The position numbers and the translations under genes were made by a program. A stretch of DNA of 64,000 bases, from positions 1,120,001 to 1,184,000 of the forward strand of contig CAWHBU010000003.1 of the NCBI GenBank assembly GCA_963827685.1, given 5' to 3'. Positions 40,415 to 63,966 of the stretch are shown here, in pieces; the stretch's first letter is position 1, and the number at the start of each line of letters is the position of its first letter. Below the pieces are notes generated by a model, which saw nothing but the letters and a program-made list of their open reading frames with translations, had not been told where the DNA came from and did not search any database. The DNA comes from an uncultured delta proteobacterium. Lineage in GTDB: Bacteria; Desulfobacterota; BSN033; UBA1163.

Positions 40415-40507
40415 TGGCGGAGAGAGAGGGATTCGAACCCTCGATCCCGTTTTAAGCGGGATACTCGCTTAGCAGGCGAGCCCCTTCGGCCTCTCGGGCA
40501 TCTCTCC
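40415..40507 (-). tRNA. tRNA-Ser (GCT)
   Basis: Anticodon arm CTCGCCTGCTAAGCGAG, CCA end. Confidence 0.93.
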
Positions 40508-40529
40508 GTTTCAAATAGTTATTATAGGA

Positions 40530-40617
40530 TGGCGGAGGGAGTAGGATTCGAACCCACGTCCCCTTTCGGAGAAGCGGTTTTCAAGACCGCCGCCTTAAAC
40601 CACTCGGCCATCCCTCC
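40530..40617 (-). tRNA. tRNA-Ser (TGA)
   Basis: Anticodon arm GCGGTCTTGAAAACCGC, CCA end. Confidence 0.93.
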
Positions 40618-49182: not shown

Positions 49183-50313
49183 ATGTCCATTGACTTCAAC
49201 AAAATCCCCTCCCCTTGTTATGTGATTGATGAGCTTTTATTGCGGAATAACCTCCAATTAATAAAGCAGGTTAAAGAAGCTGCCAAAGTTGATATCCTCG
49301 TTTCGTTTAAAGCCTTCTCGAATTGGGGGGTATTTCCGATCTTTAAAGAATACGGTTTTGGCGCTTCAGCAAGCTCCCTCAATGAAGCGCGACTGGCATA
49401 TGAGGAGCTCGGAGTAAGGGCGCATACCTATTCGCCTGCCTACGAAGAAAAGACGACCGAGGACATTTTAAAATATAGCAGTCATATCTCCTTTAATTCC
49501 ATAAACCAATTGCAAAAGTATTCTAAGGTTGCCAGTCAAAAGGGTGTTTCAATTGGCTTGCGTGTGAACCCCGAGTTTTCGGATTCCCCCCATGACATTT
49601 ATAATCCCTGTAAACCCGGCTCCCGGTTTGGCATCACTGCCGACCAGCTTGGCAGCGCCTTACCCCGGGAGGTTGAAGGGCTACATTTTCATACATTGTT
49701 TGAGGCCGATTCCTTTGCTCTCGAAAGAGTGTTGGCTGCTTTCATAAAGAAATTTGGCCGGTATTTACCTAAATTGAAATGGGTGAACATGGGCGGTGGT
49801 CATCTTATAACAAAGAAGGAATACGATATAACTCATTTGGTTAAACTCTTAATCGATTTTAAAAACAAGTATGGTGTCAAAATCATATTAGAACCTGGCA
49901 GCGCTTTTACTTATCAAACGGGTTACCTCGTTTCTACGATATTAGATATTGTTGAAAATAACGGTATAAAAACCGCTATTCTCGATGTTTCATTTACCTG
50001 CCATATGCCCGATTGTCTTGAAATGCCCTATAAACCTGTTATTCTGGGCACCACCGATGAAAGGGCAGGAAAACCGACATACCGAATGGGAGGGGTAAGT
50101 TGTTTGGCGGGTGACTATATGGGAAATTGGTCGTTCGAAAAAGAATTAAAACCCGGCGACAAAATCATCTTTGAGGATATGATTCATTACACCACCGTAA
50201 AAACCACCATGTTCAACGGCGTCAATCATCCTTCCATTGGCATATGGAATGACAAGTCAGAATTTAGGCTAATTAAAGAATTCAATTATCAGGACTATAA
50301 AAATAGATTATGA
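49183..50313 (+). CDS. nspC: Carboxynorspermidine decarboxylase
   Basis: SPCYVIDE, GLHFH, HMPDCLEMPY, CLAGD, YTTVKTTMFNG. Confidence 0.93.
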   Translation: MSIDFNKIPSPCYVIDELLLRNNLQLIKQVKEAAKVDILVSFKAFSNWGVFPIFKEYGFGASASSLNEARLAYEELGVRAHTYSPAYEEKTTEDILKYSSHISFNSINQLQKYSKVASQKGVSIGLRVNPEFSDSPHDIYNPCKPGSRFGITADQLGSALPREVEGLHFHTLFEADSFALERVLAAFIKKFGRYLPKLKWVNMGGGHLITKKEYDITHLVKLLIDFKNKYGVKIILEPGSAFTYQTGYLVSTILDIVENNGIKTAILDVSFTCHMPDCLEMPYKPVILGTTDERAGKPTYRMGGVSCLAGDYMGNWSFEKELKPGDKIIFEDMIHYTTVKTTMFNGVNHPSIGIWNDKSEFRLIKEFNYQDYKNRL

Positions 50314-50453
50314 TTATTTGGCGGTGAGATACAGTATCTTAACAGAAAAATTTCTTTAATGTTAAAGGCTTGGTTCTAAAAATTAGAATAAATCAATGCC
50401 TGGTAAATTTCCAAAGAAAGACGGAAAATGATTTAAGCGGGAGGATTGCGATA

Positions 50454-51560
50454 ATGCCAAAAAGCAAGAAAAGAAAAGTATTCATTAGCTATAGCTCGGA
50501 AGATTCAACGTTAGCGGGAACCATAGGAAATTTATTCAAGAAAGAAGTTAATGTTGAAAAGTTTTTGTACGAAGAATCTATAGATCCTTTGTCTGAATGG
50601 AAACCACAGATAAGGAACAATATAAACAATTGTGAATTACTTATAGTATTAATGACACCTTCTTCAAGAAATTCTGTCTGGGTGCATTTCGAGACGGGGG
50701 CAGCGTGGATAAAATCAATTAAGATTTTGACTCTCTGTGCGAAGGGATTAAGGCCAAGCATGTGGCCCACGTTGAATCAACTTAATGCTATTCAAATAGA
50801 TTCAGTGAAGGGTGTTAGGAAATTATTAAATGTATTAATAAATGAAAAATTTATTAGAAAGAAAGTCAATAATTCGATTATTAAAAGAATCGCGTCAGAA
50901 GGTAGAATGAAAGGCAACTGGGAATTTGTAAGAATTGCAGAAGTAGCAGATAAGCTTGGGGGCTCTCCGTTTGTACTTTCCGAAATGATTAATTATGCTG
51001 AAAAATCTATTTTTGTTGTAGGACAAAATTTATCTTTTATGGCAAAAGAAGCACAAATTCATGAATCGATAAGAAAATGGCTGGAAGCTAAAGCAGGCCG
51101 TAAAATAGAGTTGCTAATTTGTGATCCATGCAGTCATTCAGCGATTCTGCAATACTCAATCATCTTCGATAAAACAAAATTTATTGAAGATCTCTACGAT
51201 GCGATTAAGGTATTTAAAAAATTGCAGAAGAAATTGGGTAGAAGGAAATTCAAGGTGAAACTTGCAAAATCAGTTCCTCTTTCTTTAACAATAACAGATG
51301 GTAGCCTTCCAAGTGGGAGAATGTCTATAACCCCTATTGTCTTTACACCTGTTTCAGAGGAAAGGCCGGTATTTATGATAAAGAGAAAAACAAATGAGAC
51401 TGTCTTCAGTCACTATTATAATAATTATTATGAAAGGTTCAGATATTCAAAAAGAAATGTTGATAATGTAACCAATAAAGAAATTAAAGAATGCAATAAG
51501 CTTATGTCACATCCAGAGTTATCAAGTATCATTAGAAAAGAGAAATCCAAAACAAAATAA
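50454..51560 (+). CDS. TIR-domain protein with an uncharacterised C-terminal domain
   Basis: VFISYSSED...SVWVHFETGAAW (TIR catalytic Glu); AT-rich. Confidence 0.8.
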   Translation: MPKSKKRKVFISYSSEDSTLAGTIGNLFKKEVNVEKFLYEESIDPLSEWKPQIRNNINNCELLIVLMTPSSRNSVWVHFETGAAWIKSIKILTLCAKGLRPSMWPTLNQLNAIQIDSVKGVRKLLNVLINEKFIRKKVNNSIIKRIASEGRMKGNWEFVRIAEVADKLGGSPFVLSEMINYAEKSIFVVGQNLSFMAKEAQIHESIRKWLEAKAGRKIELLICDPCSHSAILQYSIIFDKTKFIEDLYDAIKVFKKLQKKLGRRKFKVKLAKSVPLSLTITDGSLPSGRMSITPIVFTPVSEERPVFMIKRKTNETVFSHYYNNYYERFRYSKRNVDNVTNKEIKECNKLMSHPELSSIIRKEKSKTK

Positions 51561-51595
51561 ATACTTACATGCCATTCGTTTATATGGAGGTGGGT

Positions 51596-51725
51596 TTACA
51601 CAACCGTGAAAACAACGATGTTCAACGGCGCCAATCATCCCTTCATTGGTATATGGAATGAAAAATCAGGATTGAGATTAATTAGAGAATTCAATTACCA
51701 GGATTATAAGAATAGATTATCTTGA
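51596..51725 (+). pseudogene. Diverged duplicate of the nspC 3' end
   Basis: YTTVKTTMFNGANHPFIGIWNEKSGLRLIREFNYQDYKNRLS* versus nspC 50188-50313. Confidence 0.88.
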
Positions 51726-51920
51726 TACTCTGTTTCTAAGTGAAGTGAAAAAGGGAATATCGGACAGGCAGGGGTGTGGATCGAGTATATCGGGGGAAAA
51801 TAATTTCCGGGTTTTGAAGGGTCCGCCTTGGTTGTGACTCTTTGGTTTTTTTATAAAGCAGGGCACAACGCTTTTTCTGGTCTTGGAGTCGCAGAAAAAC
51901 CATTTACGTTAAATAGCGAT

Positions 51921-54900
51921 ATGAAGCCGATTGACAAACATTATTTACGGCTGCAGTTCCGGAACAAGGTCTATCAAAAGAATGCAACCGAATTTCAGAC
52001 CTTTTTTGAAGATATCATGCAAGAAGCCTTCCCTGATTTTCAGAAGATTCGGCCTTACGGAAACCAGGGTGATCGTGCGAATGACGGATACAAACCAGAC
52101 AAGGGAATATACTACCAGGCTTACTCGCCCCAAAAACCGCGAGAAAAGGAAGCAGATGCTGCCAAAAAGCTCAAAAATAATTTCGAGACATTAAAGGCAA
52201 ATTGGAATCAAATCTCCAACATAAAAACATATAATTTCGTTTTTAACGATAAAAACTTTGGAGTAAGCATCGAGATCGAAAGAGCCTTGGCAGAATTGAG
52301 AGATGCTAATCCTCACATTACCTTCAACAAACTCATTGCCAAGGATTTAGAGGACATTTTTTTCACACTGAAACCTGACCAAATGCTTGCACTCGGATTT
52401 GATATTGATTCAAGAAACGCTCTTAGCAACGCACGGGAATCCTTGGCTAAACTAGAAATCGATTTGGACAGAGATAATGGGAGATTTGTTTTGAGAGCTT
52501 TGGAAAATCATAAAGATATTATCTCCAGCCTGAAAGATGAAAGCCTTCTCGTAGACTACGAAATCCTGGAGTGCGGGGCACTACAAAAACTCGAAAGGGT
52601 TAAGGAAGCAAAACAGAAATACGAGAATCTTTGCAAGAGATACCCAAATGACCCCCGCGCCTTCTTATATTTAGCCGAAATTCACTTAAATAATGACGAT
52701 TTCGACAAAAACGAAAAGGCTTTAAGAGAAGCCGAAAGAATCGACAGCAGCCACTGGCTCTTACGACTCGAAAAGCTCATCAGAGAGCGCCGACTCGGAA
52801 TCCAAATTGACCTTACACAGATTGATGAAAACAATTTTCCCACTGAATCCAGAATAAGATCACGGTTCTACCGCTTATATGCAGCCTTCCTCCTACTGGC
52901 AGGCGATCAAGCAAGAGCACAAAGCTTCATTGAAAGAGCTATAAATCTAAACCCTCAAGGAATTAATAACTACATTACTAAACTTTCGATTTCAGAAGGG
53001 CATATCTTCTCCCAAATCGACAATAAAGAAAGGCTGCAAAGCGAGGCGGAGGACCTCTTATCGGAAATTGATACTCTGCAAGAAAAGGTTAATGAATGGG
53101 GTGGCTTAAGCCCAAGAAATCAAGCCGTTCTCACCCTTCAAAAACTTGATGCGCTCCGAGTGCTGGAAAATGTTCCTGAAGTTGAAAGGCTTGCAAAAGA
53201 GAGTTTCGAGCTGATAACGCAATGTTACTTTGACTACTTGATCGATAGTCTCCTCACCGAATTCTTGACGTTCATTGTATTACCCCCAAACGAGCTTGAC
53301 AAATTATTACAGTACCTACAAGGGGCGGAAAAATGCATATCAGACGGCTTGGCAAGAATGATTACTATTCAATTCACTCTCAAAACAACCCTTTTTACCG
53401 AAGGGAAAAAATTTTTTGAAGCAACAAAGAAAAAGGACATTTGGGAGTTTATCGATAATTTAGAGAAGAAAGAATACGATGCAGCCCTGATCTTCCTGAA
53501 GGAAGACCTGTGATTCGCTGTCGCAATGGCAAACACGGCCAAACAGTTTCCTGATTTGCGAAAAAAGATAATTGAGAACCTGCCAGACGACGGAAACATT
53601 CAGAAAGAAAAACTTCTGCTTCTTCTTAATTACGACGAAAAGAACATAAATGAAGCCTTTGATCTGCTTAAGGGAATGGATTTATCGAATTTAAGCTACC
53701 TTGAATGTAGGCCAATCCTAGAAATTGCCCAACAAAAAAAGGCCTGGGACTTCGCAATCAAAGTTGTCGAAAAACTTCTAAAGCACGAAAGAGACAAGCG
53801 GGTCGCTACCCAGCTGAGGCTTCAACTATTCTCAGCAAATTTCAACCTGGGAAGACTTCCAGAAGCCATTCAGATTGGAGGAGAAATATTATCCCATACT
53901 GAAGAGATAGCTTTCTTGGACGATCACAATAAGGAGGTCCTTCTTGGAAACACATTACTAGCGAGATTGAGGCGTGGTGAATACCCACAGGCCAAAGATC
54001 TCTTGGAAAAATACCCAACGCTTTCTAAGACTTTCGAATTTAAGGTCGTAGTTGAGGCACAGGTTTATTTAAAAAATAATGATGCTAATAAAGCTCTCGC
54101 ATCAGTCGTAGCAGGTGTAAAGACACGCAAAACACTCACTCCGGAACAATATGGTAGCCTTTATATGTTTTTCATTCATATAGAAAACCTCATTGATTTC
54201 CACCTCACCCCGCAGGAAAAAGTCCAAGCGGATTCTTTTGTAAAATTGAAAGATCAAGAGAGATGGTATTTTGTCGGAGATCACGAGGAATTGGATGCCA
54301 CAAAAGTCTCACCAACTGATGGAAAGTATTCTAAATTAATGGGCAAAAGCATTGGAGAAAAAGTTACTTTTGAGGATAAGTATCGTTCAACCACGACTGA
54401 ACATATAATAGAAAATATCCTGCCGATCGAAAAGTACATCCTTTGGCAGTGCATGCATCATGCCCAACAACTATCACTCGAACGTAGATGGAATGTGATG
54501 GAAATGATCGAGGTCCCCACAACGGGAGAAGGGATAGACACAAAATACATTGTTGCCCGACTAGAGGATGAAAGAAAGAAGAAAGGCGGCCTTTTTGATC
54601 TCTATTGTCGAGAGAATGTTCCTTTAGCATTTCTCGCGGTTAATGAAGGAGGTCTGAGAGGAGCAATCGCGCGCATAACCCAGGAAAACAGCGGTTTTAT
54701 AAAATTCAGTTCAGGAGATCCAACAGAGCTAAATCACCAGAAAGAGGTAGCAAAGAGAATCATTTCGGGTCAGCCTTTCTATATTGACGGCACATCCGCC
54801 TTAGTGCTTTCAGAACCGGGCATACTGGAAAAGATTTACGAGCACTTACCAAATCTCAAGGTTCCCCAGTCCGTAATCGCTTTCTTGCTAGAAACTGAAG

Positions 54901-55739
54901 GAAAATTCCGATACATGCCTGGACTTGCTGGATATATGGGATACGCCCAGGGAAGATTAACGTTTTCATCTGTTGATGAGGAAACGAGAGCAAGTATTCA
55001 AAGAAACTTTAAACATTCAATAAAACTTCTTGAATCCAAGCCCCAAAATATCACCGCCATTTCTACTGCAAATAAAGTAAATTCTTTCTGTGAACAAGAG
55101 GTCCAAGCAGAATTGTGTGATTCATGCGTATTAGCCCAAAAAGAAAGGGTCCCTGTTCTTACCGAAGATTTTCTCTATCTCCAAGCAAACGAACTTGATA
55201 CTAAAAAGAAGGCCCCCGAATACTGTTCTGCTTTTGCTCTGGCAAGGGTGCTGTACGAACAAAAGAAACTCACTTTCGAAGATTATTTGAAGTTTTTTGC
55301 TTACCTCTCTTCCTATCGTTTCAGATTCCTCCCCATCGCCACTGAGGATATCGGAAAGGCCGTGTTTGGTGATGGCACAATAATAATAGTACAACCTGAA
55401 AGAATTAGATGGTTCAATTTCCCTCTGACGCTGTCAGAACAATATGGTGTTCCTTTCGACCGCGCGTTTAGCGTGGTGGCAGGATTCCTGACGAACGTTG
55501 TGATTGATGATACCATATTCCCAGAAACCGCGGAACGAATCTTTGTTGAAATCCTCTCCACTTTCCCAACAGAAAAAGATAAGAGAATCTTGGGAAAAAT
55601 GTTCTTAACAATCAGCATTAAAGAAATAAATAGGATTCGGCAAACAATATTTATTGGAACCACGGCACAAAAGAAAATCGCTCTGCTTTCGCAGATTGCG
55701 GAAATTTATAGTCCAAAAACCAATCTATGGAAACCTTAA
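51921..55739 (+). pseudogene. REase-like + TPR + GreA/B-C-like + PIN protein with one in-frame TGA (53511-53513)
   Basis: EFQTFF...GDRANDG...YYQAYSP nuclease-like N-terminus, TPR helices, KLMGKSIGE, FYIDGTSAL and VLTED; both ORFs share one frame. Confidence 0.7.
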
Positions 55740-55752
55740 GAAAAGTAGGCCT

Positions 55753-55848
55753 GGGGGCAGACTTAAATATTGACATCTAAGGACAAAAAGAAAGATTGTC
55801 TTGTCTTTGAAGAGAGTAAGGAAAAATCTCAATTATTGAGTCTAACCC
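55753..55848. repeat. About 97-bp repeat module core, copy 1 (right extension to about 55904)
   Basis: GGGGGCAGACTTAAATATTGA...TCAATTATTGAGTCTAACCC. Confidence 0.9.
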
Positions 55849-55940
55849 GAAAGATCCACGAAAACACCATTCTCACTGGGAAAAAAGGGCTTTTCCTATA
55901 GGCTGCTTCGTTGCATGGGAAGGAACAGAATTGAATTACC

Positions 55941-56525
55941 ATGAAACAATTCGGACTTACTGAAGATCAGTTCCAAGAGTTAATGCGGCTTTCTCGTCTC
56001 TACCGCCGAGAGGCTGACCGATCTATGGACGCAAAGGCTTATCTTGCGGGTTGTGTGATGATTGGGGCTGCCCTTGAAGCTTGCCTTCTTGCGACGTGTG
56101 ACTGCTATTCTGACGAGATTCCAGAAGAACTGATTCCTAAACAGAAGAATGGCAAGCCGAAATACCTCTTGGACTGGACTCTTTTTCAGCTTCTTCGCGT
56201 AGCGCGCGAGTGTGGCTGGCTTCCAGCACACCTGAACCTACACGAGAATTGGGACGAAAAGCGGGCTGATATCGGGGATTACGCTGTTGTGCTCAAGGAG
56301 ATGCGAAATTTGGTGCACGCAAGCTGTCACATCGCAGATTTCCCGAAATCCCGAGTCACTAAACGGCGAATGGAGATGTGTTTCGAGATTTTGGAGGTAG
56401 CCAGCACGCACTTGCAGGCCAAACTCTATCAGTCACTGAAGGTGGCAATGGAAGAAGAGGAAAAAAAACACCGAGCGAGTCGCCCCACCGCATGGCCGAT
56501 AAATCCGGCTCACAGTGAGCCGTAG
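55941..56525 (+). CDS. Hypothetical protein, HEPN-like
   Basis: AYLAGCVMIGAALE...MRNLVH. Confidence 0.6.
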   Translation: MKQFGLTEDQFQELMRLSRLYRREADRSMDAKAYLAGCVMIGAALEACLLATCDCYSDEIPEELIPKQKNGKPKYLLDWTLFQLLRVARECGWLPAHLNLHENWDEKRADIGDYAVVLKEMRNLVHASCHIADFPKSRVTKRRMEMCFEILEVASTHLQAKLYQSLKVAMEEEEKKHRASRPTAWPINPAHSEP

Positions 56526-56572
56526 CGTTCGCCTTACATCAAAATATTTCGACGATCTATCCAGAGTGAGAA

Positions 56573-57436
56573 ATGAATACCAATACAAGCTTGATGGAAA
56601 AATTTATTGCAGATAGGAAGAAGCTGAAATCATATTCTAGCCTGAAATATGAATCGCGTGCTCCAAGACCATACCTTTTCATTGACCAGCCTGAAGTTCT
56701 TGCAGGCTTTGCCGGGTATTTAAAATTCCAATGCTTAAAGAAGGATCCCACGACCAAAGTCTTTTGCAGGGGACAGGTTAACGACTACCCAAGCATTCCA
56801 AGTCTTTTCAGAGGTAAAAACTTGTCCGATGACCACCTTAAACGAAGGCTGGCGGCATATGAAGCACTGGTCTGCAAAGCCAAGTACCTTTACAACGCCA
56901 GTCGCTTTCAGCAAGAGAACATTCATGCAATATTGCAGCATTATGGCCTAAAAACCCCCTGGCTCGATTTAGTCGACAATGTCTTCGTTGCTCTTTGGTT
57001 TGCAACTCACAAATATTTCGGTGAGAATAATGGAAATAAGGCGCACTACAAAATATCAAGAAAACAGTTTGGCCATATTTACTTTTACGCAACCACCCCA
57101 AAAACAAAGTATTTCGATTTAAGAGAAAAGCATTCATCGTTGAGCCTACGCTTGCATGTGCAGCATGGAATTTCAATTACGAGAAAAGAAATAAAATGGA
57201 CTCTCGCGAACAGATGTCTTGACGACCATCTTGTTGCAACAGTTAAATTCCCAAATGGAAAAGAATGGCGGCCTAGTGGCCAGATATTTTCCACAAGGTT
57301 TCTTTTTCCATCTACCGACCTCGATAATACATACAAATATCTAAAGATGAAGAAATTCAGCGAATTACTGAACGAGATCAGCCACAGATACCAACTAGGG
57401 GAAGATGAACTTGGCAGAGTCGCCGATTTCGGATAG
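56573..57436 (+). CDS. FRG-domain protein
   Basis: FCRGQ, PSLFR, LQHYGLKTPWLD, VALWFA, QHG. Confidence 0.85.
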   Translation: MNTNTSLMEKFIADRKKLKSYSSLKYESRAPRPYLFIDQPEVLAGFAGYLKFQCLKKDPTTKVFCRGQVNDYPSIPSLFRGKNLSDDHLKRRLAAYEALVCKAKYLYNASRFQQENIHAILQHYGLKTPWLDLVDNVFVALWFATHKYFGENNGNKAHYKISRKQFGHIYFYATTPKTKYFDLREKHSSLSLRLHVQHGISITRKEIKWTLANRCLDDHLVATVKFPNGKEWRPSGQIFSTRFLFPSTDLDNTYKYLKMKKFSELLNEISHRYQLGEDELGRVADFG

Positions 57437-57473
57437 TCTTTTTCAAAAAGAAAAGATAAATGCACCAAAAAAA

Positions 57474-57536
57474 GCCGAACCAATGTATGCAGCGGATCGC
57501 CGATAAATCCGGTCCCTGGTGAACTTTGTGCTAGGA
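57474..57536 (+). other. Degenerate attC site
   Basis: GCCGAAC...ATGCAGCGGATCGCC...GGTGAAC...GCTAGG; related site at 56470-56533. Confidence 0.6.
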
Positions 57537-57549
57537 GCAAAACGAAACA

Positions 57550-58152
57550 ATGAATTCCAACCAGTTCGCTAAGCTCAAGGGGTGGGTAGATTACGACCGC
57601 CCATTCCTCTCGCAATTGACCTACAAGCAGAAAATAATTTGGTTACGGCGGCGATTGAACCTAACGCTGATCAAACCACTGAAATATGTTTATCGAGGAG
57701 TGTCGCGTAGCTCGCAACAATCGGCACTCTTAATTCTTGCCACGATAATTTGTTGTGCAATCGAGGCTATGGGCAAATTTTATATCGGGGGAAGAGGCAA
57801 CAACCATTCCAGGTTCAATGGGTTTCTAAGAGGATTCATGCACAGTGATTTTATGAGTCACAGCATCCAGGGAATGAGGTATGGCGATATCCTCTGGTAT
57901 TACTTTCGCAATGGCTTGGCTCATGGGTTTGCCATTTGCCATGGTGGATTTGAATACCAGGACAGTTATTTTTCAGTCAAGATTAATGGTCCCAAAGAAA
58001 CTCTCTTAATCGACCCTAAGAACTTTCTCGACAACTTTTTAAACGGAGTTAAGAAATACCTCGACGCTCTCCACAAATCGTCACCAACAAGAGACAAAGT
58101 CGCTCGAGATTTCGAAAAGGTTTTCAAGAGTGTGTTCATCGATGGGAAATAG
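57550..58152 (+). CDS. Hypothetical protein, HEPN-like
   Basis: CCAIEAM...FRNGLAHG (RxxxxH). Confidence 0.62.
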   Translation: MNSNQFAKLKGWVDYDRPFLSQLTYKQKIIWLRRRLNLTLIKPLKYVYRGVSRSSQQSALLILATIICCAIEAMGKFYIGGRGNNHSRFNGFLRGFMHSDFMSHSIQGMRYGDILWYYFRNGLAHGFAICHGGFEYQDSYFSVKINGPKETLLIDPKNFLDNFLNGVKKYLDALHKSSPTRDKVARDFEKVFKSVFIDGK

Positions 58153-58312
58153 GGCCCCCAACAAATCATTCGACCGGATGTTCAAAACGTCAGTCACTTC
58201 AAACGGAGACACGTCCGTAAGGCCACCGCCAGAGGACCTGCCAGGGGAGGACCTGCCAGGGGGACGTAGTTGAAAAATAACACTTTACAGATACGGAAAT
58301 GTATAGAACCCT

Positions 58313-58409
58313 GGGGTCAGACTTGAATATTGACATCTAAGGACAAAAAGAAAGAATGTCTTGTCTCTGAAGAGAGTAAGGAAAAATCTCAATGATTGAT
58401 TCTGACCCC
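58313..58409. repeat. Repeat module core, copy 2 (full module about 58258-58454)
   Basis: GGGGTCAGACTTGAATATTGA...TCAATGATTGATTCTGACCCC. Confidence 0.9.
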
Positions 58410-58479
58410 GAATACACCGTTCTCACTCGTCAAAACGACTTTTTCTACAGGCTCGTTATACCCAAGGAGGCGTAGCCGA

Positions 58480-59916
58480 ATGACCGCTCCCAAGCTTTTC
58501 ATTTCCTACAGCTGGTCAAGCGCCGAACACGAACAACGGATCCTGGATCTCGCAACAGAGTTGCGCGAGTCCGGCGTGGACGTCATCTTGGACAAATGGG
58601 ATCTCAAGGAAGGGCATGACGCCGTTGTTTTCATGGAGCAGATGGTTACCAATCCTGAGATCAAGAAGGTCGCAATCATCTGCGATGAGACATATGCAGC
58701 GAAGGCCGATGGCCGTGCTGAAGGCGTAGGAGCAGAGACACAGATCATCTCAAAGGAAGTCTACGAGAACCAGGCCCAGGAGAAATTTGTCGCTGTCGTG
58801 ACCGAAAAGGACGAAAACGGGAAGCCGTTTCTCCCAACGTACTACAAATCGCGTATTTACATTGATCTTAGCGAAGCCGACCGGTACGCAGAAAATTTCG
58901 AGCGACTGTTAAGATGGATATTTGACAAGCCCCTCTACGTCAAACCCGAGCTTGGAAACAGGCCATCTTTCTTATCTGAAGGCGCACATGTTTCTCTGGG
59001 CACGGCTGTCCTCTTCAAGAGGTGCATAGATGCCATAAAAAACCATAAGGCATACGCTGAGGGCGCGTTCGACGAATACTGCAGTTCATTTACATCAAAT
59101 CTGGAACGCTTCAGGTTATTAAAACCGGAAGGAGAGTTTGATGATGCGGTAGTCAAGAACATAGAAGAATTTCTGCCATATCGCAATGAACTTATTCAAC
59201 TATTGACTACGGTTGCTCGGTACTCTCCAACCCCGGAATTCACACAACGAATTCATCGTCTGTTCGAGAGCTTGATCCCGTATATGAACAGGGCTCCGAA
59301 CATTACACATTGGAACGAGTGGGATTTCGATAACTTCAAGTTCACAGTACACGAGTTGTTCCTGTATGCGTTGGCTGTGCTCTTGAAGGATGATCGGCTA
59401 TATCAAGCGAATCTTCTTCTTCAACAGCAATATTATTTGCCAGGGAATTCAGACTATGGTCGAGATGCAATGGTCAGTTTTGTGGTTTTCCGGCAGCACA
59501 TGCTATCGCTAGAACATCGCAACACCCGATTGGATCTCCGCCGGGCATCCATTCGAGCCGATTTATTGAAGGAACGATGTAACGGAACAGGAATCGACTT
59601 CCGTTATCTAATGCAAGCGGATTTCGTCGCCTTCATGCGCGCGGAGGTTGAAGCGAAGAACGACTGGAGCCGTTGGTGGCCTGAAACGTTGCTCTATCTC
59701 GGGCACTTCAATAGCCCATTCGAAATTTTTGCCAGATCTGTTTCGAAGACCTACTTCGATAGGGCCAAGGTATTACTTGCCATTGATACTCCGAAGGATC
59801 TAGAGCCTTTACTCAAGAGCTATCAAGACTGCTCACGAACATTACCCAGATGGCCGTTCCAAGGCTTCAACCCTGCAGTCCTGCTTGGATACGAACACCT
59901 AGCCACTCGGCCGTAA
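58480..59916 (+). CDS. SEFIR/TIR-domain protein
   Basis: PKLFISYSWS...LRESGVDVILDKWDL...GVGAETQII; AGGAGG RBS. Confidence 0.85.
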   Translation: MTAPKLFISYSWSSAEHEQRILDLATELRESGVDVILDKWDLKEGHDAVVFMEQMVTNPEIKKVAIICDETYAAKADGRAEGVGAETQIISKEVYENQAQEKFVAVVTEKDENGKPFLPTYYKSRIYIDLSEADRYAENFERLLRWIFDKPLYVKPELGNRPSFLSEGAHVSLGTAVLFKRCIDAIKNHKAYAEGAFDEYCSSFTSNLERFRLLKPEGEFDDAVVKNIEEFLPYRNELIQLLTTVARYSPTPEFTQRIHRLFESLIPYMNRAPNITHWNEWDFDNFKFTVHELFLYALAVLLKDDRLYQANLLLQQQYYLPGNSDYGRDAMVSFVVFRQHMLSLEHRNTRLDLRRASIRADLLKERCNGTGIDFRYLMQADFVAFMRAEVEAKNDWSRWWPETLLYLGHFNSPFEIFARSVSKTYFDRAKVLLAIDTPKDLEPLLKSYQDCSRTLPRWPFQGFNPAVLLGYEHLATRP

Positions 59917-60055
59917 CCAGGACGGGAAATGGGGGACGTAGGGAAAAATGCAACTCTTCAGTGTTGATACAAGATTAACCATTTTACGCAGCTAATTTAA
60001 TGCTAGAAGGAGAAGCTTTGAAGGTTAGACAGAATGTTGGAGGTCGATTTTTTGA

Positions 60056-60511
60056 ATGAAAGCAACGATTCGATCAAAATCTGATCAGGCGTTTAGACAG
60101 TCTGTCCGACCACTTGGTTTGTTTTTCTTGCTAGCCAGCATTATGATGATCCAGGTCTTCTTTGTTTTTCCAGATGAAGACTGGAGTCAATTTCCATTCC
60201 CTTTTCTCCACTCGGTAGTTGGGAAAAAGTTGTTAATTGCCTTTTCTGATGTCTTGCTTTTTTATATCGGTTTTGGTCTTCTGAGAAAATGGAAAATTGC
60301 ATGGTATACGCTATTCGTATATATCATTAGTGGAACAATATGGATAGCTTTAGGGGCTATCTTTGATTATTTCCCAGGTAATGTTCCAAAATACCTTATG
60401 GGTATGGCAGCCATCTTGATCAATGGGGGAATAGCTATAGGCATCTACTTTGCTACGCGTCCTGCTTTCGTTAATTTACAGAGGGACCAGATGGACGTAG
60501 TTGAAAAATAA
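60056..60511 (+). CDS. Hypothetical membrane protein
   Basis: Four hydrophobic segments; stop codon lies in the repeat's left extension. Confidence 0.7.
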   Translation: MKATIRSKSDQAFRQSVRPLGLFFLLASIMMIQVFFVFPDEDWSQFPFPFLHSVVGKKLLIAFSDVLLFYIGFGLLRKWKIAWYTLFVYIISGTIWIALGAIFDYFPGNVPKYLMGMAAILINGGIAIGIYFATRPAFVNLQRDQMDVVEK

Positions 60512-60544
60512 CACTTTACAGATATAGAAATGTGAAGAAGCCCT

Positions 60545-60640
60545 GGGGCCAGACTTAAATATTGAAATCTAAGGACAAAAAGAAAGATTGTCTGTCTTTG
60601 ACGAGAGTAAGGAAAAATCTCAATAATTGTTTCTGACCCC
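60545..60640. repeat. Repeat module core, copy 3 (left extension from about 60493)
   Basis: GGGGCCAGACTTAAATATTGA...TCAATAATTGTTTCTGACCCC. Confidence 0.9.
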
Positions 60641-60737
60641 GAAGATTTTTATTCCTGACGCGGATTAGCCGCGTCAGCTTTTGGGTATTGCTGATTGCCC
60701 CCGCAGGTTATGCAAATCGTTAGGGCATATACAGACA

Positions 60738-61343
60738 ATGATGTCGAACCTCCACCATAGCGATGATTCAGTGGATTTCTGGGTGTGGATTAATCCGCAG
60801 AATTGGCTCGTAAAGCACCAGATTACTTTCACCGGAGGTTTCACGTCAGGCGGTTTGCTCAAGAAGGGAGCGTCAAATCTGATGTTCATTCCTAATCCTG
60901 AGTTCAAGTCAGATATCACCCCTTTTCAATTCGGCATCATGCGGGAGTACATGGCGGAATATAACCTCGAACTTGGGAGAGAACGTTATTTTGCTGACTA
61001 CCCCAGCCGTTTGAACGCAATCTACCTCTTTACCTCTGAGGCCGAAGCGCATAAATACAAAGAGAGACATATGCAACACGTAGGCGACAGAATCCTCAAG
61101 AAAGTTCACTCGGTGACCCCTTGCGTGTATTCCGTCCATGATTCCAGTTGGGTGGACTTTCTTCGTCTGGCGCACTCTGTGGATTCGGTGTCCCTTGATA
61201 ATGTTAGTAAGGCATACTGGGGTGGCGTGCGCGTCGAGGACAACAAGTTGTTGTCAATGGGAGCGCCTTGGTCACAAGAGGCAATCTTCGAAGCTTTGTT
61301 CCTTGGCCGTATTGAGTTCTATGACAGAAACCTTGATCGCTAA
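60738..61343 (+). CDS. Hypothetical protein, DUF2441-like
   Basis: ELGRERYFADYPSRLNAIYLF...AYW...E. Confidence 0.55.
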   Translation: MMSNLHHSDDSVDFWVWINPQNWLVKHQITFTGGFTSGGLLKKGASNLMFIPNPEFKSDITPFQFGIMREYMAEYNLELGRERYFADYPSRLNAIYLFTSEAEAHKYKERHMQHVGDRILKKVHSVTPCVYSVHDSSWVDFLRLAHSVDSVSLDNVSKAYWGGVRVEDNKLLSMGAPWSQEAIFEALFLGRIEFYDRNLDR

Positions 61344-61404
61344 CAACTCGTGCACCGGACGTAGAGCATAACTGCGTGCCACGCCAGTGAGCACCGCGTT
61401 GGGC
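61338..61404 (+). other. attC site
   Basis: CGCTAACAACTCGTGCACCGGACG...CGCCAGTGAGCACCGCGTTGGGC; gene stop inside R'', R' matches GTTRRRY. Confidence 0.75.
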
Positions 61405-61487
61405 TGATATTGAATCAGCAAAGTCTTAAGATGGACTCAAGTCTTTTATGCACGATATTGGCAGCTGAAAAGGAGGTGGATGTTCTG

Positions 61488-61802
61488 ATGATTAACAGCA
61501 TCATAGCTATCATTTCGTTGTTAACATCCATAATAGCGATAGTTATTTCTATAATGGCATTCTCGTGGAATAGAAAAATTTCAATGCTTCAGGCAGACGA
61601 TAACATAATTAATTATGTGTCTGCTATTTTCAATTTTCTTGAAAAATCAAAATCGCTAGGACCAGATGAACGTGAACTATTTAAAGCTCTTCTCCGTGAT
61701 AGCACCTTTCTGGGGCCAACTACTAAGGAGTTGATAACAGAGAAATACTTCTCCCGTTGGCAAGTTGATGAAGAGCTGGAGAAATATTTTAAATCTATTT
61801 AG
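61488..61802 (+). CDS. Hypothetical membrane-anchored protein
   Basis: AAGGAGGTG RBS, N-terminal TM helix. Confidence 0.65.
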   Translation: MINSIIAIISLLTSIIAIVISIMAFSWNRKISMLQADDNIINYVSAIFNFLEKSKSLGPDERELFKALLRDSTFLGPTTKELITEKYFSRWQVDEELEKYFKSI

Positions 61803-61849
61803 TGAAAATTTCGAAGCCCAACCAGTAGGTTTAGTAGGACTGCAGGCAT

Positions 61850-61945
61850 GGGGTCAGATTTAAATATTGCCCTTAAAGGACAAAAAGAAAGAATACCTTG
61901 TCTTTGAAGAGGGTAAGGAAAAATCTAAATAATTATGTCTGACCC
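61850..61945. repeat. Repeat module core, copy 4 (right extension to 62000)
   Basis: GGGGTCAGATTTAAATATTG...AATAATTATGTCTGACCC. Confidence 0.88.
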
Positions 61946-62016
61946 GAAAGACTCCGAAAACACCCTTCTCACTGGTCAAAAGGACTTTTTCTACAGGCTC
62001 GTTGGTCGGAGAAGAT

Positions 62017-62355
62017 ATGAAATGTCCGCAGTGCGATAATGACTTCTTGTTGACGTGGAAGCGATATATCAAAGCCCCATTGGGCAGGGTGTCCTGTCCT
62101 TCTTGCCATGCAAAGCTCGTATGCACGCATCGTTGGTTCTATTGGCCACTCATGATTCTAGGTTGTTGTATTCTGGGTATTCCTCTGGCCATATTGGGTG
62201 CGAACTATGGTGTTGCCGGCGCCCTGACGGGTTGGTTTATCGGTGCGTTCGGCGTCGGAATCCCATTTGATAGGTTTCTTGAGATCAGGCTCTCAGTGCT
62301 GAGGATGAGACAGAATGAGACGTCCAACAAGCCGACTGGAGGCGATGTCCAATAG
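62017..62355 (+). CDS. Zinc-ribbon membrane protein
   Basis: CPQC...CPSC plus two TM helices. Confidence 0.7.
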   Translation: MKCPQCDNDFLLTWKRYIKAPLGRVSCPSCHAKLVCTHRWFYWPLMILGCCILGIPLAILGANYGVAGALTGWFIGAFGVGIPFDRFLEIRLSVLRMRQNETSNKPTGGDVQ

Positions 62356-62381
62356 GGCGCGCCTCATTCGCGATGTTATGA
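62322..62381 (+). other. attC site
   Basis: GTCCAAC (RYYYAAC)...GAGGCG/CGCCTC...GTTATGA. Confidence 0.7.
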
Positions 62382-62394
62382 GCAGACGAGGCAA

Positions 62395-62907
62395 ATGGAA
62401 TACCTGACAGACATCATGAAACCAGAAGACTGGCAGCAAGTCCGGTCGATCTACCTCGAAGGCATCGCCACGGGCAATTCTACCTTTGAGGCAGATGTTC
62501 CTGATTGGGAGAAGTGGGAGTCTGCTCACCTACCGGAACACCGGTTAGTGGTCAGAGAAGGCGATAGTATTCTGGCATGGGCCGCACTGAGCCCCGTTTC
62601 CAGCCGCTGCGTTTACTTGGGTGTAGCGGAACTCAGTCTGTACGTGGCGGCCGGGCATAGAGGTAGAGGCATAGGGTCAGCCCTGCTTAAGGCAATCATA
62701 AACTCAACCGAAAAGGCCGGGCTGTGGACACTGCAAGGAGGCATCTTCCCTGAGAATACACCGAGCCTCCGCCTCGTGAAAAAGCATGGATTCAAGGAGA
62801 TCGGAAGACGTGAGAGGATAGGCAAGATGACCTACGGTGATCTTGCCGGAACTTGGCGAGACGTTATTTTGGTAGAACGCCGAAGCATTGTGACAGGCAT
62901 AGATTGA
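62395..62907 (+). CDS. GNAT N-acetyltransferase (phosphinothricin/YncA-like)
   Basis: STFE, ELSLYV, RGRGIGSALL, IFPENTPS, WRDV. Confidence 0.87.
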   Translation: MEYLTDIMKPEDWQQVRSIYLEGIATGNSTFEADVPDWEKWESAHLPEHRLVVREGDSILAWAALSPVSSRCVYLGVAELSLYVAAGHRGRGIGSALLKAIINSTEKAGLWTLQGGIFPENTPSLRLVKKHGFKEIGRRERIGKMTYGDLAGTWRDVILVERRSIVTGID

Positions 62908-62962
62908 AAAGACCTCATAACAAGGCGCTGAACCGGATCGCCCATAAGACGAGGAACGGCTC

Positions 62963-63038
62963 GGGGGGAAGTAATTGAAGAATAGCACTTTACAGATATG
63001 GAAATGTGTAGAGGCTTGGGATCAGACTTAAATATTGA
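62963..63038. repeat. Truncated repeat module (left extension plus first 21 bp of the core)
   Basis: GGGGGAAGTAATTGAAGAATAGCACTTTACAGATATGGAAATG...GGGATCAGACTTAAATATTGA, then GTTAGTG. Confidence 0.8.
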
Positions 63039-63133
63039 GTTAGTGATATGATACCACAGTGACTATCGCCCAATAAGCGGGCTTCCCGGTGAGTTTCAGG
63101 TGAGTGATAAATAATTGGGATTTTGGAGATCCC

Positions 63134-63199
63134 ATGTTTTGTCCGAAATGTAGAACTGAATATCGTGAAGGATTTTATGAAAATGGCAATCATATATAA
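63134..63199 (+). pseudogene. Truncated zinc-ribbon gene start
   Basis: GGAG RBS plus MFCPKCRTEYREGFYENGNHI*. Confidence 0.4.
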
Positions 63200-63228
63200 C
63201 TGTCAGGGCCCATATGTTGGAGGAAAAC

Positions 63229-63825
63229 ATGGAGCAGGGAAACGCCAAAGCCATCGTTATCTGTCCTTTCTGTAAGTCGGAAAACCCTGAAATAAGTATT
63301 TGCCTTACATGTGGGGCACAACTAAAGAGAGAAAAGTTGAATGCCAAAGACCTGATCCCAAGACCGGTATGGTTAACCGTCCTCGCCGGTCTTTACGCAC
63401 TCCTTTTTATCAAAAATATGTTTCTTATTTTATTTCAAAAAAATGCAGCAGCCATCGTTATATTAATCATAATTGCCATTATCGAGATTTCAATGGCTTA
63501 CGGTTTGTGGCAGCTTAAGAAATGGGCATGGACAGTAGTAGTCATAAGTTGCTTTGCAGGTCTCATATTCGTGTGGCTCATCCCGATATTACTGTGGTTA
63601 AATCCTTCCGAAGGCTTAAGATTATTCTACAAGGCTTTCTTTCATGTGACCGTTCGCCATCAGAATTCAATTGACTTCTTCAGGGCAGCAGCAATAAAAG
63701 GATCTTTGATAGGTGCCATCCTTACATCGATAATAAATGTTTTAATCTTGGTATATTTCTATAGTCCGCGCATACGTGAAATTTTCTCAGATAATCCTGT
63801 ATTTTGGAAAGCGGCAAGCTTGTAA
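63229..63825 (+). CDS. Zinc-ribbon membrane protein
   Basis: CPFC...CLTCG plus four TM helices; GGAGG RBS. Confidence 0.72.
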   Translation: MEQGNAKAIVICPFCKSENPEISICLTCGAQLKREKLNAKDLIPRPVWLTVLAGLYALLFIKNMFLILFQKNAAAIVILIIIAIIEISMAYGLWQLKKWAWTVVVISCFAGLIFVWLIPILLWLNPSEGLRLFYKAFFHVTVRHQNSIDFFRAAAIKGSLIGAILTSIINVLILVYFYSPRIREIFSDNPVFWKAASL

Positions 63826-63869
63826 TGCTATAATCATGAACATTAAACAATAGTGGTAAGAGGAACCCC

Positions 63870-63966
63870 GGGGTCAGACTTAAATATTGACATCTAAGGA
63901 CAAAAAGAAAGATTGTCTTGTGTCTGAAGAGAGTAAGGAAAAATCTCAATAATTGAGTTTGACCCC
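63870..63966. repeat. Repeat module core, copy 5
   Basis: GGGGTCAGACTTAAATATTGA...TCAATAATTGAGTTTGACCCC. Confidence 0.9.

What the first reader, a model, noticed from the sequence alone, without database searches (positions are those of the whole stretch)
55753..63966. A conserved 97-200-bp module repeatedly occupies attC sites and abuts the GTT crossover point
Seen: five full cores (55753, 58313, 60545, 61850, 63870) and two partial copies (59931, 62963), all in the same orientation, found only in the cassette array and only between genes. The core has terminal inverted arms GGGGTCAGACTTAAATATTGA...TCAATAATTGAGTCTGACCCC. Optional extensions are GGACGTAGTTGAAAAATAACACTTTACAGAT on the left and CACC.TTCTCACT...TTTTTCTACAGGCTC on the right. 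At 58455 and 62001 the right extension ends exactly at the next cassette's GTT. At 58156, 59911, 61816 and 62915 an attC left end (..AAC) precedes the module, and at 63039 a truncated core is fused directly to GTTAG. Inference: either an attC-targeting non-autonomous element that locks or rewires cassettes, or an alternative recombination or promoter unit (the core contains TTGACA) that builds gene arrays. This is my best candidate for an undescribed system in the window.
Basis: partly seen in the sequence, partly recalled or inferred. Interest (0 to 1): 0.85.

Follow-up and report, generated by a model that had tools for sequence, protein, structure and literature searches.

The report
Nested transposon relics at attC sites
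The repeated module is the decayed remains of two small mobile elements nested in each other, and the outer one belongs to an insertion-sequence lineage that inserts exactly at the GTT crossover point of integron attC sites.

Summary
It is a composite of two elements, not a new recombination system.

(1) The right extension ends in the 18-bp terminal inverted repeat of a 1.8-kb IS1182-type insertion sequence. This genome holds 5 full copies, 4 internally deleted copies and five ~160-bp miniature (MITE) copies. The IS sits at the GTT of attC sites, flanked by GTT on both sides and always in one orientation. Relatives in other phyla show GTT at 18 of 18 left ends and 19 of 19 right ends found. 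That is why the module abuts GTT.

(2) The core is an internal-deletion miniature of a ~1.0-kb element. That element encodes a 314-aa Y1 (IS200/RAYT-like) transposase between the same inverted arms. The core's TTGACA lies within the first 29 nt shared with that element, where it reads as a −35 box 17 nt upstream of TAATTT.

By itself the core is not bound to attC sites. Most window copies look like immobile relics. An attC-homing IS1182 lineage did not appear in my literature searches, so I rate this a new variant of a known kind.

The parts
55753..55848 (+). Core copy 1: miniature of the Y1-transposase element
   Evidence: Its ends match positions 1-29 and 980-1006 of the 1007-bp element. The same left flank is present in a congener (G011), so this site looks inherited.
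55849..55912 (+). Right extension 1, with a degenerate IS1182-type right inverted repeat (CTTTTCCTATAGGCTGCTTC) and GTT at 55910-55912
58156..58271 (+). Degenerate attC remnant of the upstream cassette: R'' CCCCAAC at 58156-58162, ending ...GGGGGACGTA GTT at 58269-58271. It contains a 15-nt tandem duplication.
   Evidence: weak attC-model hit at 58162-58205, 11.3 bits, E about 1; poor fold
58272..58312 (+). Left extension 2: left part of the MITE shell. Its inverted repeat lacks about 8 nt compared with the IS left inverted repeat.
   Evidence: read by eye. The same left boundary occurs in G004, G010 and G011.
58313..58409 (+). Core copy 2
58410..58457 (+). Right extension 2, with an intact 18-bp right inverted repeat at 58437-58454 (GACTTTTTCTACAGGCTC) and GTT at 58455-58457
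59931..59965 (+). Partial copy: a remnant resembling the left extension only, inside or next to the attC remnant that starts with R'' GCCGTAAC at 59910
   Evidence: weak
60490..60544 (+). Left extension 3 (GTT at 60500-60502). The last 13 codons and the stop of ORF 60056-60511 lie in it and in the decayed sequence just upstream.
60545..60640 (+). Core copy 3. It has no right extension and is followed by a terminator-like hairpin at 60655-60677.
61338..61404 (+). Canonical attC, unoccupied
   Evidence: attC model R1: 33 bits, E 4e-05 over window plus L031. This site was one of the 14 training sequences.
61816..61849 (+). 5' end of the attC of cassette 61399-... (R'' GCCCAAC, complementary to GTTGGGC at 61398), truncated and joined to core 4
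61850..61945 (+). Core copy 4
61946..62003 (+). Right extension 4, with an intact right inverted repeat at 61983-62000 and GTT at 62001-62003
   Evidence: In G010 the same downstream cassette is preceded by a different remnant, of the IS right-end type, plus inverted repeat and GTT.
62322..62381 (+). Canonical attC, unoccupied
   Evidence: attC model R1: 39.1 bits, E 1.4e-06 over window plus L031. Training member.
62914..62976 (+). attC of the GNAT cassette (R'' CTCATAAC; the R' triplet reads ATT at 62974-62976). Its 3' half differs from the intact attC of the 97%-identical cassette in G006.
62977..63041 (+). Left extension 5, then the left arm of the core only (63018-63038), cut off at GTT 63039-63041
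63041..63098 (+). ORF-less unit consisting of an attC-like sequence. Absent at the same place in G010.
63870..63966 (+). Core copy 5, with no recognisable extensions

Best explanation
The module is a composite relic of two non-autonomous transposable elements.

Outer shell. The left and right extensions are the remains of a MITE derived from, or mobilised by, a 1.8-kb IS1182-type DDE insertion sequence with 18-bp terminal inverted repeats (GAGSCTGTAGAAAAAGTC). This IS lineage recognises attC sites. It inserts at the 3' foot of the attC hairpin, exactly at the GTT of the R' box, and is then flanked by GTT on both sides. Its transposase always points the same way as the cassette genes. This explains why the right extension stops at the next cassette's GTT, why all copies share one orientation, and why attC 5' halves precede them.

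Inner element. The 96-97-nt core is an internal-deletion miniature of a ~1.0-kb element carrying a Y1 (HUH, IS200/RAYT-like) transposase gene between 21-29-nt inverted arms. The core keeps the first ~29 nt, which include the parent element's -35-like TTGACA, and the last ~28 nt, which include the stop codon and the right arm.

Shown: the sequence identities, the copy numbers, the flanks, and the attC nature of the targets.

Inferred:
- The transposase reads the attC hairpin in the way IS1272 reads hairpins.
- The window copies are mostly immobile, because their left inverted repeats are defective and no cognate Y1 gene is found in this genome.
- After insertion they travel as the 5' leader of the downstream cassette.
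- Where only an attC 5' half remains, the attC is disabled.
For: IS and its copies in this genome:
- The last 18 nt of the right extension equal the inverted repeat of an IS at C3:132997-134799. Its 517-aa transposase matches Pfam DUF772, DDE_Tnp_1_6 and DDE_Tnp_1. It scores 256.7 bits against NCBIfam transpos_IS1182.
- There are 5 full copies at 98.5-100% identity and 4 internally deleted copies.
- Of these 9 copies, 6 have GTT on both sides, 1 has ATT on both, 1 has GTT and GTG, and 1 is unclear. The reconstructed empty sites read as attC.
- Five ~160-bp MITEs with intact inverted repeats also sit at attC-like sites. Four have GTT on both sides. One of them shares about 90% of its right 50 nt with the module.

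The IS lineage elsewhere:
- 22 related loci were found, from MAGs labelled delta proteobacterium, Thermodesulfobacteriota, Nitrospirae, Thermodesulfovibrionia and Desulfobacteraceae. GTT precedes all 18 left ends found and follows all 19 right ends found. The attC is always on the same side.
- Of 27 target flanks examined, 25 could be scored. 19 of these 25 fold as attC (AAC...GTT closure with at least 16 end pairs), against 43 of 399 random GTT positions.
- The aligned targets show covariation in the attC stems: score 0.332 against 0.127 in shuffles, with 0 of 500 shuffles reaching the observed value.
- In this genome, attC-model hits end exactly where IS copies start, at C8:42744, C4:102252, C3:246455 and C3:1075970.

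Cassette comparisons:
- In G010 the same downstream cassette (93% identity) carries a different remnant of this IS family at the same GTT.
- Whole cassettes differ between G000 and G010, with the breaks at G|TN.

Core:
- A 22-mer from the left arm occurs in at least 120 metagenome contigs.
- Among 79 distinct copies, 14 are ~1007-bp elements with a 314-aa ORF and the right arm, 10 more have the ORF, and 18 are 94-98-nt miniatures.
- The ORF matches Pfam Y1_Tnp (50 bits) and NCBIfam REP_Tyr_transpos (72.5 bits).
- Core ends match element positions 1-29 and 978/980-1007 at 89-100% identity.

Literature, passages read:
- The IS1182-family members IS1272 and TnSha1 target hairpins, insert at the stem foot and often delete part of the hairpin (PMC5678879 and PMC4923244).
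Against: - None of the window copies has an intact left inverted repeat. The shared left boundary (GGACGTA GTT GAAAAAT...) recurs in four species. Independent decay does not explain that, so how this subfamily spread is open.
- The attC remnants before 58269 and 60500 fold poorly, and the attC model gives at best 11 bits there.
- IS1272 makes no target duplication, whereas this IS is flanked by GTT on both sides. The analogy with IS1272 is therefore only partial.
- The transposase scores just under the NCBIfam cut-off, 256.7 against 270.
- The middle ~40 nt of the core was not matched to the parent element by BLAST. Its resemblance to the 3' end of the ORF is seen by eye only.
- Most metagenome copies of the Y1 element are not inside an IS1182 shell. 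The right inverted repeat plus GTT followed 5 of 79, and an intact left inverted repeat preceded 0 of 79.
- Why the two elements are nested here is unexplained. A paralogous Y1 element is nested the same way at C4:98402-99186.
Confidence: 0.8

Rival explanations
1. The shell and the Y1 element form one integrated, still-mobile transposon family. In this reading an attC-homing vehicle carries a Y1 transposase gene, or its miniature, as cargo. They would not be two elements that happened to nest.
For: - Two different Y1 subfamilies are found in the same arrangement. One has arms GGGGTCAGAC.... The other has arms GGGGTCAGGTC... and lies at C4 as attC, GTT, left inverted repeat, arm, gene, arm. 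A right arm followed by right extension, right inverted repeat and GTT lies at C6:355520.
- The ~160-bp MITEs carry a small hairpin, GGGGTCA..TGACCCC, at the position of the core.
- Miniatures followed by the right inverted repeat and GTT recur in unrelated metagenomes: L075, L090 and L093, plus L109 and L135.
Against: - All 14 full Y1 elements in metagenomes lack the right inverted repeat under a motif allowing 3 mismatches. None of the 79 copies has an intact left inverted repeat nearby.
- No copy with both inverted repeats and a full Y1 gene was seen.
Confidence: 0.12
2. The module has been domesticated as a portable 5' leader or promoter that drives the otherwise promoterless cassette downstream.
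For: - All five cores point the same way as the cassette genes, and for the four whose downstream sequence lies in the window a cassette ORF follows within about 40-95 nt of the core.
- TTGACA with a 16-nt spacer and AAGAAT scores 10 of 12 at 58330.
- A second site inside the right half of the core, TTGAMG with an 18-nt spacer and AATAAT, scores 9-10 of 12 at 60598 and 61904.
- The remnant ending in the right inverted repeat stays attached to the same cassette in two species.
Against: - Promoter-like sites in the region number 11, against 13.1 +/- 3.8 in shuffles.
- Orientation and position are already explained by oriented insertion at GTT.
- No transcript data were obtained.
- The -10 hexamer of the parent promoter (TAATTT) is deleted in the miniatures.
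Confidence: 0.1
3. The module is an unusually long attC variant, or an alternative recombination site used by an integron integrase.
For: - It lies between an R'' box and a GTT in two cassettes (61816...62003 and 62914...63041).
- The core is a long imperfect palindrome.
Against: - The attC model built here hits none of the modules.
- The arms carry no AAC/GTT boxes.
- The same core flanks a transposase gene elsewhere.
- A 97%-identical cassette in G006 has an ordinary 61-nt attC without the module.
- The only integron-integrase match in this genome is a C-terminal fragment about 340 kb away.
Confidence: 0.03
4. The core is a structured non-coding RNA gene or a cis-regulatory RNA.
For: The outer stem and two inner hairpins are conserved across 16 copies from 7 genomes.
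Against: - Only 1 of 27 predicted pairs shows a compensatory change.
- There is no Rfam match at the gathering threshold, or at E<=1 on the cores.
- The conservation is explained by descent from the ends of a transposable element.
Confidence: 0.03

Closest known systems
IS1182 family insertion sequences, in particular IS1272 and TnSha1 of staphylococci
   Same: - DDE transposase with the same Pfam architecture, and transpos_IS1182 as the best NCBIfam match.
- Terminal inverted repeats.
- Targets are DNA hairpins or palindromes, entered at the foot of the stem and often with loss of part of the hairpin (passages of PMC5678879 and PMC4923244). This fits the truncated attC halves in the window.
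   Different: - IS1272 shows no primary-sequence specificity, inserts in both orientations and makes no target duplication.
- The lineage here is found at one class of hairpin (attC), at one triplet (GTT), in one orientation, with GTT on both sides.
IS1111-attC group (ISPa21, ISPst6; IS110 family) and group IIC-attC introns
   Same: They are mobile elements that specifically invade the attC sites of cassette arrays (passages of PMC3001079 and PMC3971601).
   Different: - Those elements use a DEDD transposase or a retro-homing intron. They insert near the 5' end of the attC, antisense to the cassettes.
- Here the enzyme is an IS1182-type DDE transposase. Insertion is at the 3' R' GTT, in the same direction as the cassettes, and MITE derivatives exist.
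REPIN/RAYT systems and IS200/IS605-derived miniatures
   Same: - The parent of the core encodes a Y1 (HUH) transposase that matches Pfam Y1_Tnp and, just below its cut-off, NCBIfam REP-associated tyrosine transposase.
- The miniature is a ~100-nt hairpin-forming doublet of inverted arms, like a REPIN.
   Different: - The arms are inverted repeats of each other, not individually palindromic REPs or subterminal hairpins.
- The miniature keeps pieces of the promoter and of the ORF end, so it is a plain internal deletion.
- The genus carries up to 8 paralogous genes per genome rather than one.
MITEs associated with integrons (integron mobilisation units, MITE-flanked class 1 integrons)
   Same: They are short non-autonomous elements with inverted repeats found at integrons. 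I saw only the search listing and did not read these papers. The names are recalled.
   Different: As recalled, those elements flank whole integrons and mobilise them. They are not described as inserting into individual attC sites at the crossover point.

Membership tests
IS1182 family (the autonomous partner of the module's extensions) | DDE transposase of IS1182 type | tested here: inconclusive
   Pfam DUF772 (53.8 bits), DDE_Tnp_1_6 (79.8) and DDE_Tnp_1 (41.6) all pass their cut-offs. NCBIfam transpos_IS1182 scores 256.7 bits against a cut-off of 270; the next family, IS5_4, scores only 35.8.
IS1182 family (the autonomous partner of the module's extensions) | Terminal inverted repeats bounding a single transposase gene | tested here: met
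   18-bp inverted repeats at both ends of 1.8-kb copies; 5 full copies at 98.5-100% identity
IS1182 family (the autonomous partner of the module's extensions) | Insertion into palindromic or hairpin targets (reported for some members) | tested here: met
   19 of 25 scored target flanks fold as attC, against 43 of 399 controls. Covariation supports the attC stems. Literature passages.
MITE of that IS (the window module's extensions) | Both terminal inverted repeats of the parent IS | tested here: not met
   The right inverted repeat is intact in 2 of 5 copies (58437-58454 and 61983-62000), degenerate in 1 (55891-55909), and absent in 60545 and 63870. No window copy has an intact left inverted repeat. 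The five ~160-bp MITEs elsewhere in the genome do have both.
MITE of that IS (the window module's extensions) | Same target and same flanking triplet as the parent IS | tested here: met
   GTT follows the right end at 55910, 58455 and 62001. GTT or ATT precedes the left extension at 58269, 60500 and 62974.
Miniature of a Y1-transposase element (the core) | Ends identical to those of an element that encodes the transposase | tested here: met
   The ends match positions 1-29 and 978/980-1007 of the 1007-bp element at 89-100% identity. 14 full elements were seen.
Miniature of a Y1-transposase element (the core) | A cognate autonomous copy in the same genome | tested here: not met
   The best match in G000 is 41% identical. 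The only close copy in the genus is in G003: 89% identity, residues 1-270, with one internal TAA. G000 is 94.5% complete.
REPIN/RAYT | RAYT-type Y1 transposase | tested here: inconclusive
   NF047646 REP_Tyr_transpos scores 72.5 bits against a cut-off of 80; Pfam Y1_Tnp passes. There is no PDB sequence match at E<=0.01. An HUH-like HVH and a Y-L-H-x-N-P tyrosine are visible in the sequence; the motif names are recalled.
REPIN/RAYT | Flanking REP units that are each a short palindrome | tested here: not met
   The arms pair with each other, not with themselves.
attC site | R''(..AAC) and R'(GTT..) boxes closing an L''/L' stem | tested here: not met
   Model R1 finds 61338-61400 and 62322-62377 but none of the modules. 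The core arms have no such boxes.
IS1111-attC group | IS110-family DEDD transposase; insertion near the attC 5' end, antisense | tested here: not met
   The transposase is of DDE IS1182 type. Insertion is at the 3' GTT in the sense orientation. The defining features come from a passage of PMC3001079.
Rfam RNA family | Match to a curated covariance model | tested here: not met

The most novel reading that the evidence does not exclude
An abundant environmental lineage of IS1182-type DDE transposons, with its MITEs, homes to the integron attC recombination site. It inserts at the G|TT crossover triplet in a fixed orientation and across several phyla. This would be a third, mechanistically distinct class of attC-invading element, after IS1111-attC and group IIC-attC introns. 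Its relics become 5' leaders of cassettes, can disable attC sites, and repeatedly host Y1 (RAYT-like) elements. Such a transposase would read both a DNA hairpin and a triplet.
Probability: 0.4. Interest if true: 0.65.

Novelty: new variant of a known kind. Interest (0 to 1): 0.5.

Why it matters
Cassette arrays are usually thought to be reshaped by the integron integrase alone.

This case shows a DDE transposon lineage that uses the same crossover triplet. It is flanked by that triplet on both sides and leaves relics that travel with cassettes or truncate attC sites. Such relics could freeze parts of an array and seed homologous recombination between arrays. They could also mislead attC and cassette callers in metagenomes.

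The lineage is common. 7998 of the 8000 candidate proteins scored matched the transposase at E<=1e-40, and the 120 best are 82-94% identical. A transposase that combines hairpin recognition with a fixed triplet and a fixed orientation is also of mechanistic interest.

The core itself is ordinary: a miniature of a Y1-transposase element.

Tried and rejected
- Structured RNA. RNAalifold on 16 cores gave 1 compensatory pair of 27. Rfam gave nothing on the cores. Rejected.
- Tn3-type miniature, suggested by the GGGG ends. No 5-bp duplication is present and the flanks are conserved, read by eye. Dropped once the Y1 parent was found.
- A first strict attC pattern scan found nothing useful. A fold-based scan was noisy inside genes. 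Both were replaced by the covariance model R1.
- One case (p59, GTT given as 59962) was off by one base. I do not use it.
- Promoter scan: not above chance.
- Integron integrase. There is no full gene in G000. The best match is a 101-aa C-terminal fragment at C3:782919-783275, so the array is a cluster of attC sites without a nearby integrase.
- PDB sequence search with the Y1 protein: no match at E<=0.01.
- Orthologue search for cassette 61480-61849: none in the 40 relatives searched.
- Literature. Searches 'attC + insertion sequence + IS1182' (9 papers), 'attC + MITE + gene cassette + integron' (20), 'IS1111-attC' (10), 'RAYT + integron' (55, 12 listed) and 'IS1182 family + target site' (13) turned up no description of an IS1182-type element targeting attC. 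For most of these papers I saw only listings and abstract starts. I read passages of PMC9137128, PMC3971601, PMC3001079, PMC11089894, PMC5678879 and PMC4923244.
- PMC11089894 reports that 49% of cassette-associated transposases in plant microbiomes are of the IS5 family, without describing attC targeting.
- Tetu and Holmes 2008 (PMC2447020) is not held. ISfinder could not be consulted. Supplementary files were not opened and may list such elements.
- I did not try RNA or read mapping (look-up of sequencing runs, read laying), structure prediction or complex prediction.

Full report
**1. Observation**

The window is G000:C3:1120001-1184000.
- Direct reading confirms every coordinate given. That includes the GTT after the right extension at 58455 and 62001, and the truncated core joined to GTTAG at 63039.
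- A profile of the five cores searched over the whole 5.2-Mb assembly finds 8 copies. Five are in the array. The others are at C8:29067-29174, C8:35165-35280 and C3:137265-137372.
- The core is also present in 9 of 14 congeners searched, again clustered at 1-2-kb spacing. G010, for example, has 8 hits in C2:1396931-1410504.

**2. The setting is a true cassette array without a nearby integrase**
- The genes from 55941 onward are short, co-oriented and mostly without a Pfam family. Those with a family are FRG, TIR/SEFIR and GNAT.
- Two canonical attC sites lie at 61338-61404 and 62322-62381.
- The R'' boxes at 61816 and 62914 are exact complements of the R' boxes that open the same cassettes.
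- Comparison with G010 shows whole-cassette differences whose breakpoints fall at G|TN. G010 joins the zinc-ribbon cassette directly to the cassette that starts at window 63100. G000 has two more units in between.
- A 97%-identical GNAT cassette in G006 has other neighbours and an intact 61-nt attC.
- No integron integrase is in the window. The only strong match in the genome is a 101-aa C-terminal fragment at C3:782919-783275.

**3. The right extension is the end of an insertion sequence**

A profile of the right extension matched many places in the genome through its last ~28 nt. Reading these places showed one motif, GACTTTTTCTACAGGCTC followed by GTT, at the ends of longer repeats.
- Pairs of the motif in inverted orientation bound a 1803-bp element at C3:132997-134799. 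It has one 517-aa ORF.
- The ORF matches Pfam DUF772, DDE_Tnp_1_6 and DDE_Tnp_1. Its best NCBIfam match is transpos_IS1182, at 256.7 bits against a cut-off of 270.
- BLAST finds 5 full copies at 98.5-100% identity, which points to recent activity. It also finds internally deleted copies of 303, 304, 405 and 586 bp.
- A further family of five 158-160-bp MITEs has both inverted repeats intact.
- The right ~50 nt of one of these MITEs are about 90% identical to the module's right extension.

**4. This IS lineage homes to the attC GTT**
- In G000, 6 of the 9 full or deleted copies have GTT on both sides. One has ATT on both, one has GTT and GTG, and one is unclear. Joining the flanks rebuilds typical attC sites, for example GCCTAAC...GTTAAGGATGAC GTT ATCC.
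- A scan of one genome per species found 22 related loci at 66-93% protein identity. They come from MAGs labelled delta proteobacterium, Thermodesulfobacteriota, Nitrospirae, Thermodesulfovibrionia, Desulfobacteraceae and an unclassified bacterium.
- GTT precedes all 18 left ends found and follows all 19 right ends found. The attC lies upstream of the transposase gene on the same strand in every readable case.
- Of 27 flanks examined, 25 could be scored. 19 of these fold with AAC...GTT closure and at least 16 end-to-end pairs, against 43 of 399 random GTT positions.
- I aligned 12 of these targets with the 2 window attCs. The attC stems show covariation: score 0.332 against 0.127 +/- 0.024 in shuffles, with 0 of 500 shuffles as high. 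72% of cells are paired, against 25-50% when the partner column is slid.
- The covariance model built from this alignment finds 31 sites in G000 at E<=1. They cluster where the IS, MITE and core copies are. Four of them end exactly one base before an IS start, at C8:42744, C4:102252, C3:246455 and C3:1075970.
- In G010 the cassette that follows window 62001 is preceded by a different remnant of the same IS family, again ending ...CTACAGGCTC GTT. The same GTT has therefore been occupied by two variants, or the remnant travels with the cassette.

**5. The core is a miniature of a Y1-transposase element**
- Among 79 distinct copies in the 80 loci returned, 14 are ~1007-bp elements. In these the arm is followed after ~50 nt by a 314-aa ORF, and the ORF's stop codon lies inside the right arm. 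Ten more have the ORF but no right arm within reach. Eighteen are 94-98-nt miniatures, 29 have other content and 8 are cut by contig ends.
- The ORF matches Pfam Y1_Tnp (50 bits) and NCBIfam REP-associated tyrosine transposase (72.5 bits against a cut-off of 80).
- The window cores match element positions 1-29 and 980-1007 at 89-97% identity. The copies outside the array match at 97-100%.
- In the full element TTGACA is followed after 17 nt by TAATTT, then the ATG.
- G000 has no close copy of the gene; the best match is 41% identical. In the genus only G003 has one, at 89% identity with an internal stop. Every genome carries several distant paralogues.

**6. How the two parts relate**
- In the ~160-bp MITEs a small hairpin, GGGGTCA..TGACCCC, occupies the place of the core, and the sequence to its right is shared with the module.
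- A paralogous Y1 element, with arms GGGGTCAGGTC..., sits in the same shell at C4. The order there is attC, GTT, 16 nt of the left inverted repeat, 11 nt, arm, gene, arm (attC hit at C4:99118-99186).
- The core alone is not attC-bound. 6 of 70 metagenome copies have an attC-like fold ending within 60 nt upstream, against 6 of 150 control positions. The right inverted repeat plus GTT follows only 5 of 79.
- I therefore read the window module as one lineage of shell-plus-miniature. It was present before the species of this genus split: the same left boundary is found in G004, G010 and G011, and the site of copy 55753 is orthologous in G011.

**7. What remains unclear**
- No window copy has an intact left inverted repeat.
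- The left extension begins ...GGACGTA GTT GAAAAATAAC. By comparison with other attC sites of this genome (for example ...GAGCCGTAGC GTT at 56515), I read GGACGTA GTT as the 3' end of an attC. On that reading the element starts after GTT with an inverted repeat that lacks about 8 nt. This was judged by eye.
- At 61816 only 27 nt separate R'' from the core. At 62914 the attC's 3' half differs from that of the near-identical G006 cassette from the loop onward.
- Partial loss of the target hairpin is what IS1272 and TnSha1 produce, but I cannot show that it happened here.

**8. Comparison with what is known**
- The attC-invading elements I found described are the IS1111-attC group (IS110 family) and group IIC-attC introns. 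Both insert near the 5' end of the attC, antisense to the cassettes (passages).
- IS1182-family members are reported to target hairpins.
- My five searches found no report of an IS1182-type lineage specific for attC. One paper notes that IS5-family transposases are the commonest in plant-microbiome cassettes, without describing targeting.
- All 120 best protein matches carry no name beyond 'transposase'.
- ISfinder, Tetu and Holmes 2008, and paper supplements could not be consulted, so prior description cannot be excluded.

**9. Verdict**

The module is ordinary in kind, being nested transposon relics. What it reveals is an attC-GTT-homing IS1182 lineage with MITEs, and that appears to be a new variant of a known kind.

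Noticed in passing
window 50187-50311 and 51596-51720: The last ~125 nt of the PLP-decarboxylase gene (49183-50313) are repeated at 86% identity after a TIR-domain gene (50370-51560). In G010 the decarboxylase is present with no gene between the two repeat positions. The TIR gene therefore looks inserted, with duplication of the gene's end.
   Followed up: partly
window 50370-55739: A TIR-domain protein, a TPR protein and a PIN-TPR-GreABC-type protein lie directly upstream of the cassette array. This may be a defence island. A TIR/SEFIR protein is itself a cassette at 58480-59916.
   Followed up: no
G000:C3:782919-783275 (L037:7911-8216, minus strand): A 101-aa C-terminal fragment of an integron integrase scores 191 bits on TIGR02249 positions 197-315. 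No N-terminal half is evident. It is the only strong integrase match in the assembly.
   Followed up: partly
window 63041-63098: An ORF-less unit consists of an attC-like sequence only, closing with GTG instead of GTT. It is absent from the corresponding place in G010.
   Followed up: partly
window 58231-58260: A perfect 15-nt tandem duplication (GAGGACCTGCCAGGG twice) lies inside the attC remnant that precedes module 58313.
   Followed up: no
L186 (G006:C144), just after the attC of the GNAT cassette: Four bases after the GTT there is a sequence resembling the IS right inverted repeat (GACTTTTCTATAAGGTGC). Such solo remnants may be common at cassette 5' ends.
   Followed up: no
genus-wide: Genomes of this genus carry up to 8 distant paralogues (32-46% identity) of the Y1/RAYT-like transposase, which is an expanded family.
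   Followed up: no
L059 (a Thermodesulfobacteriota MAG): A 406-bp deleted IS copy is followed by GTT and then directly by a second MITE-like element. This looks like tandem insertions at the duplicated GTT.
   Followed up: no
window 23951-24040, 37865-37963, 38999-40617: A tRNA-Sec gene, the SRP RNA and a cluster of five tRNA genes; ordinary.
   Followed up: no
window 60655-60677: A strong terminator-like hairpin (9 pairs, 7 G-C, then CTTTT) follows core 60545 in place of the right extension.
   Followed up: no
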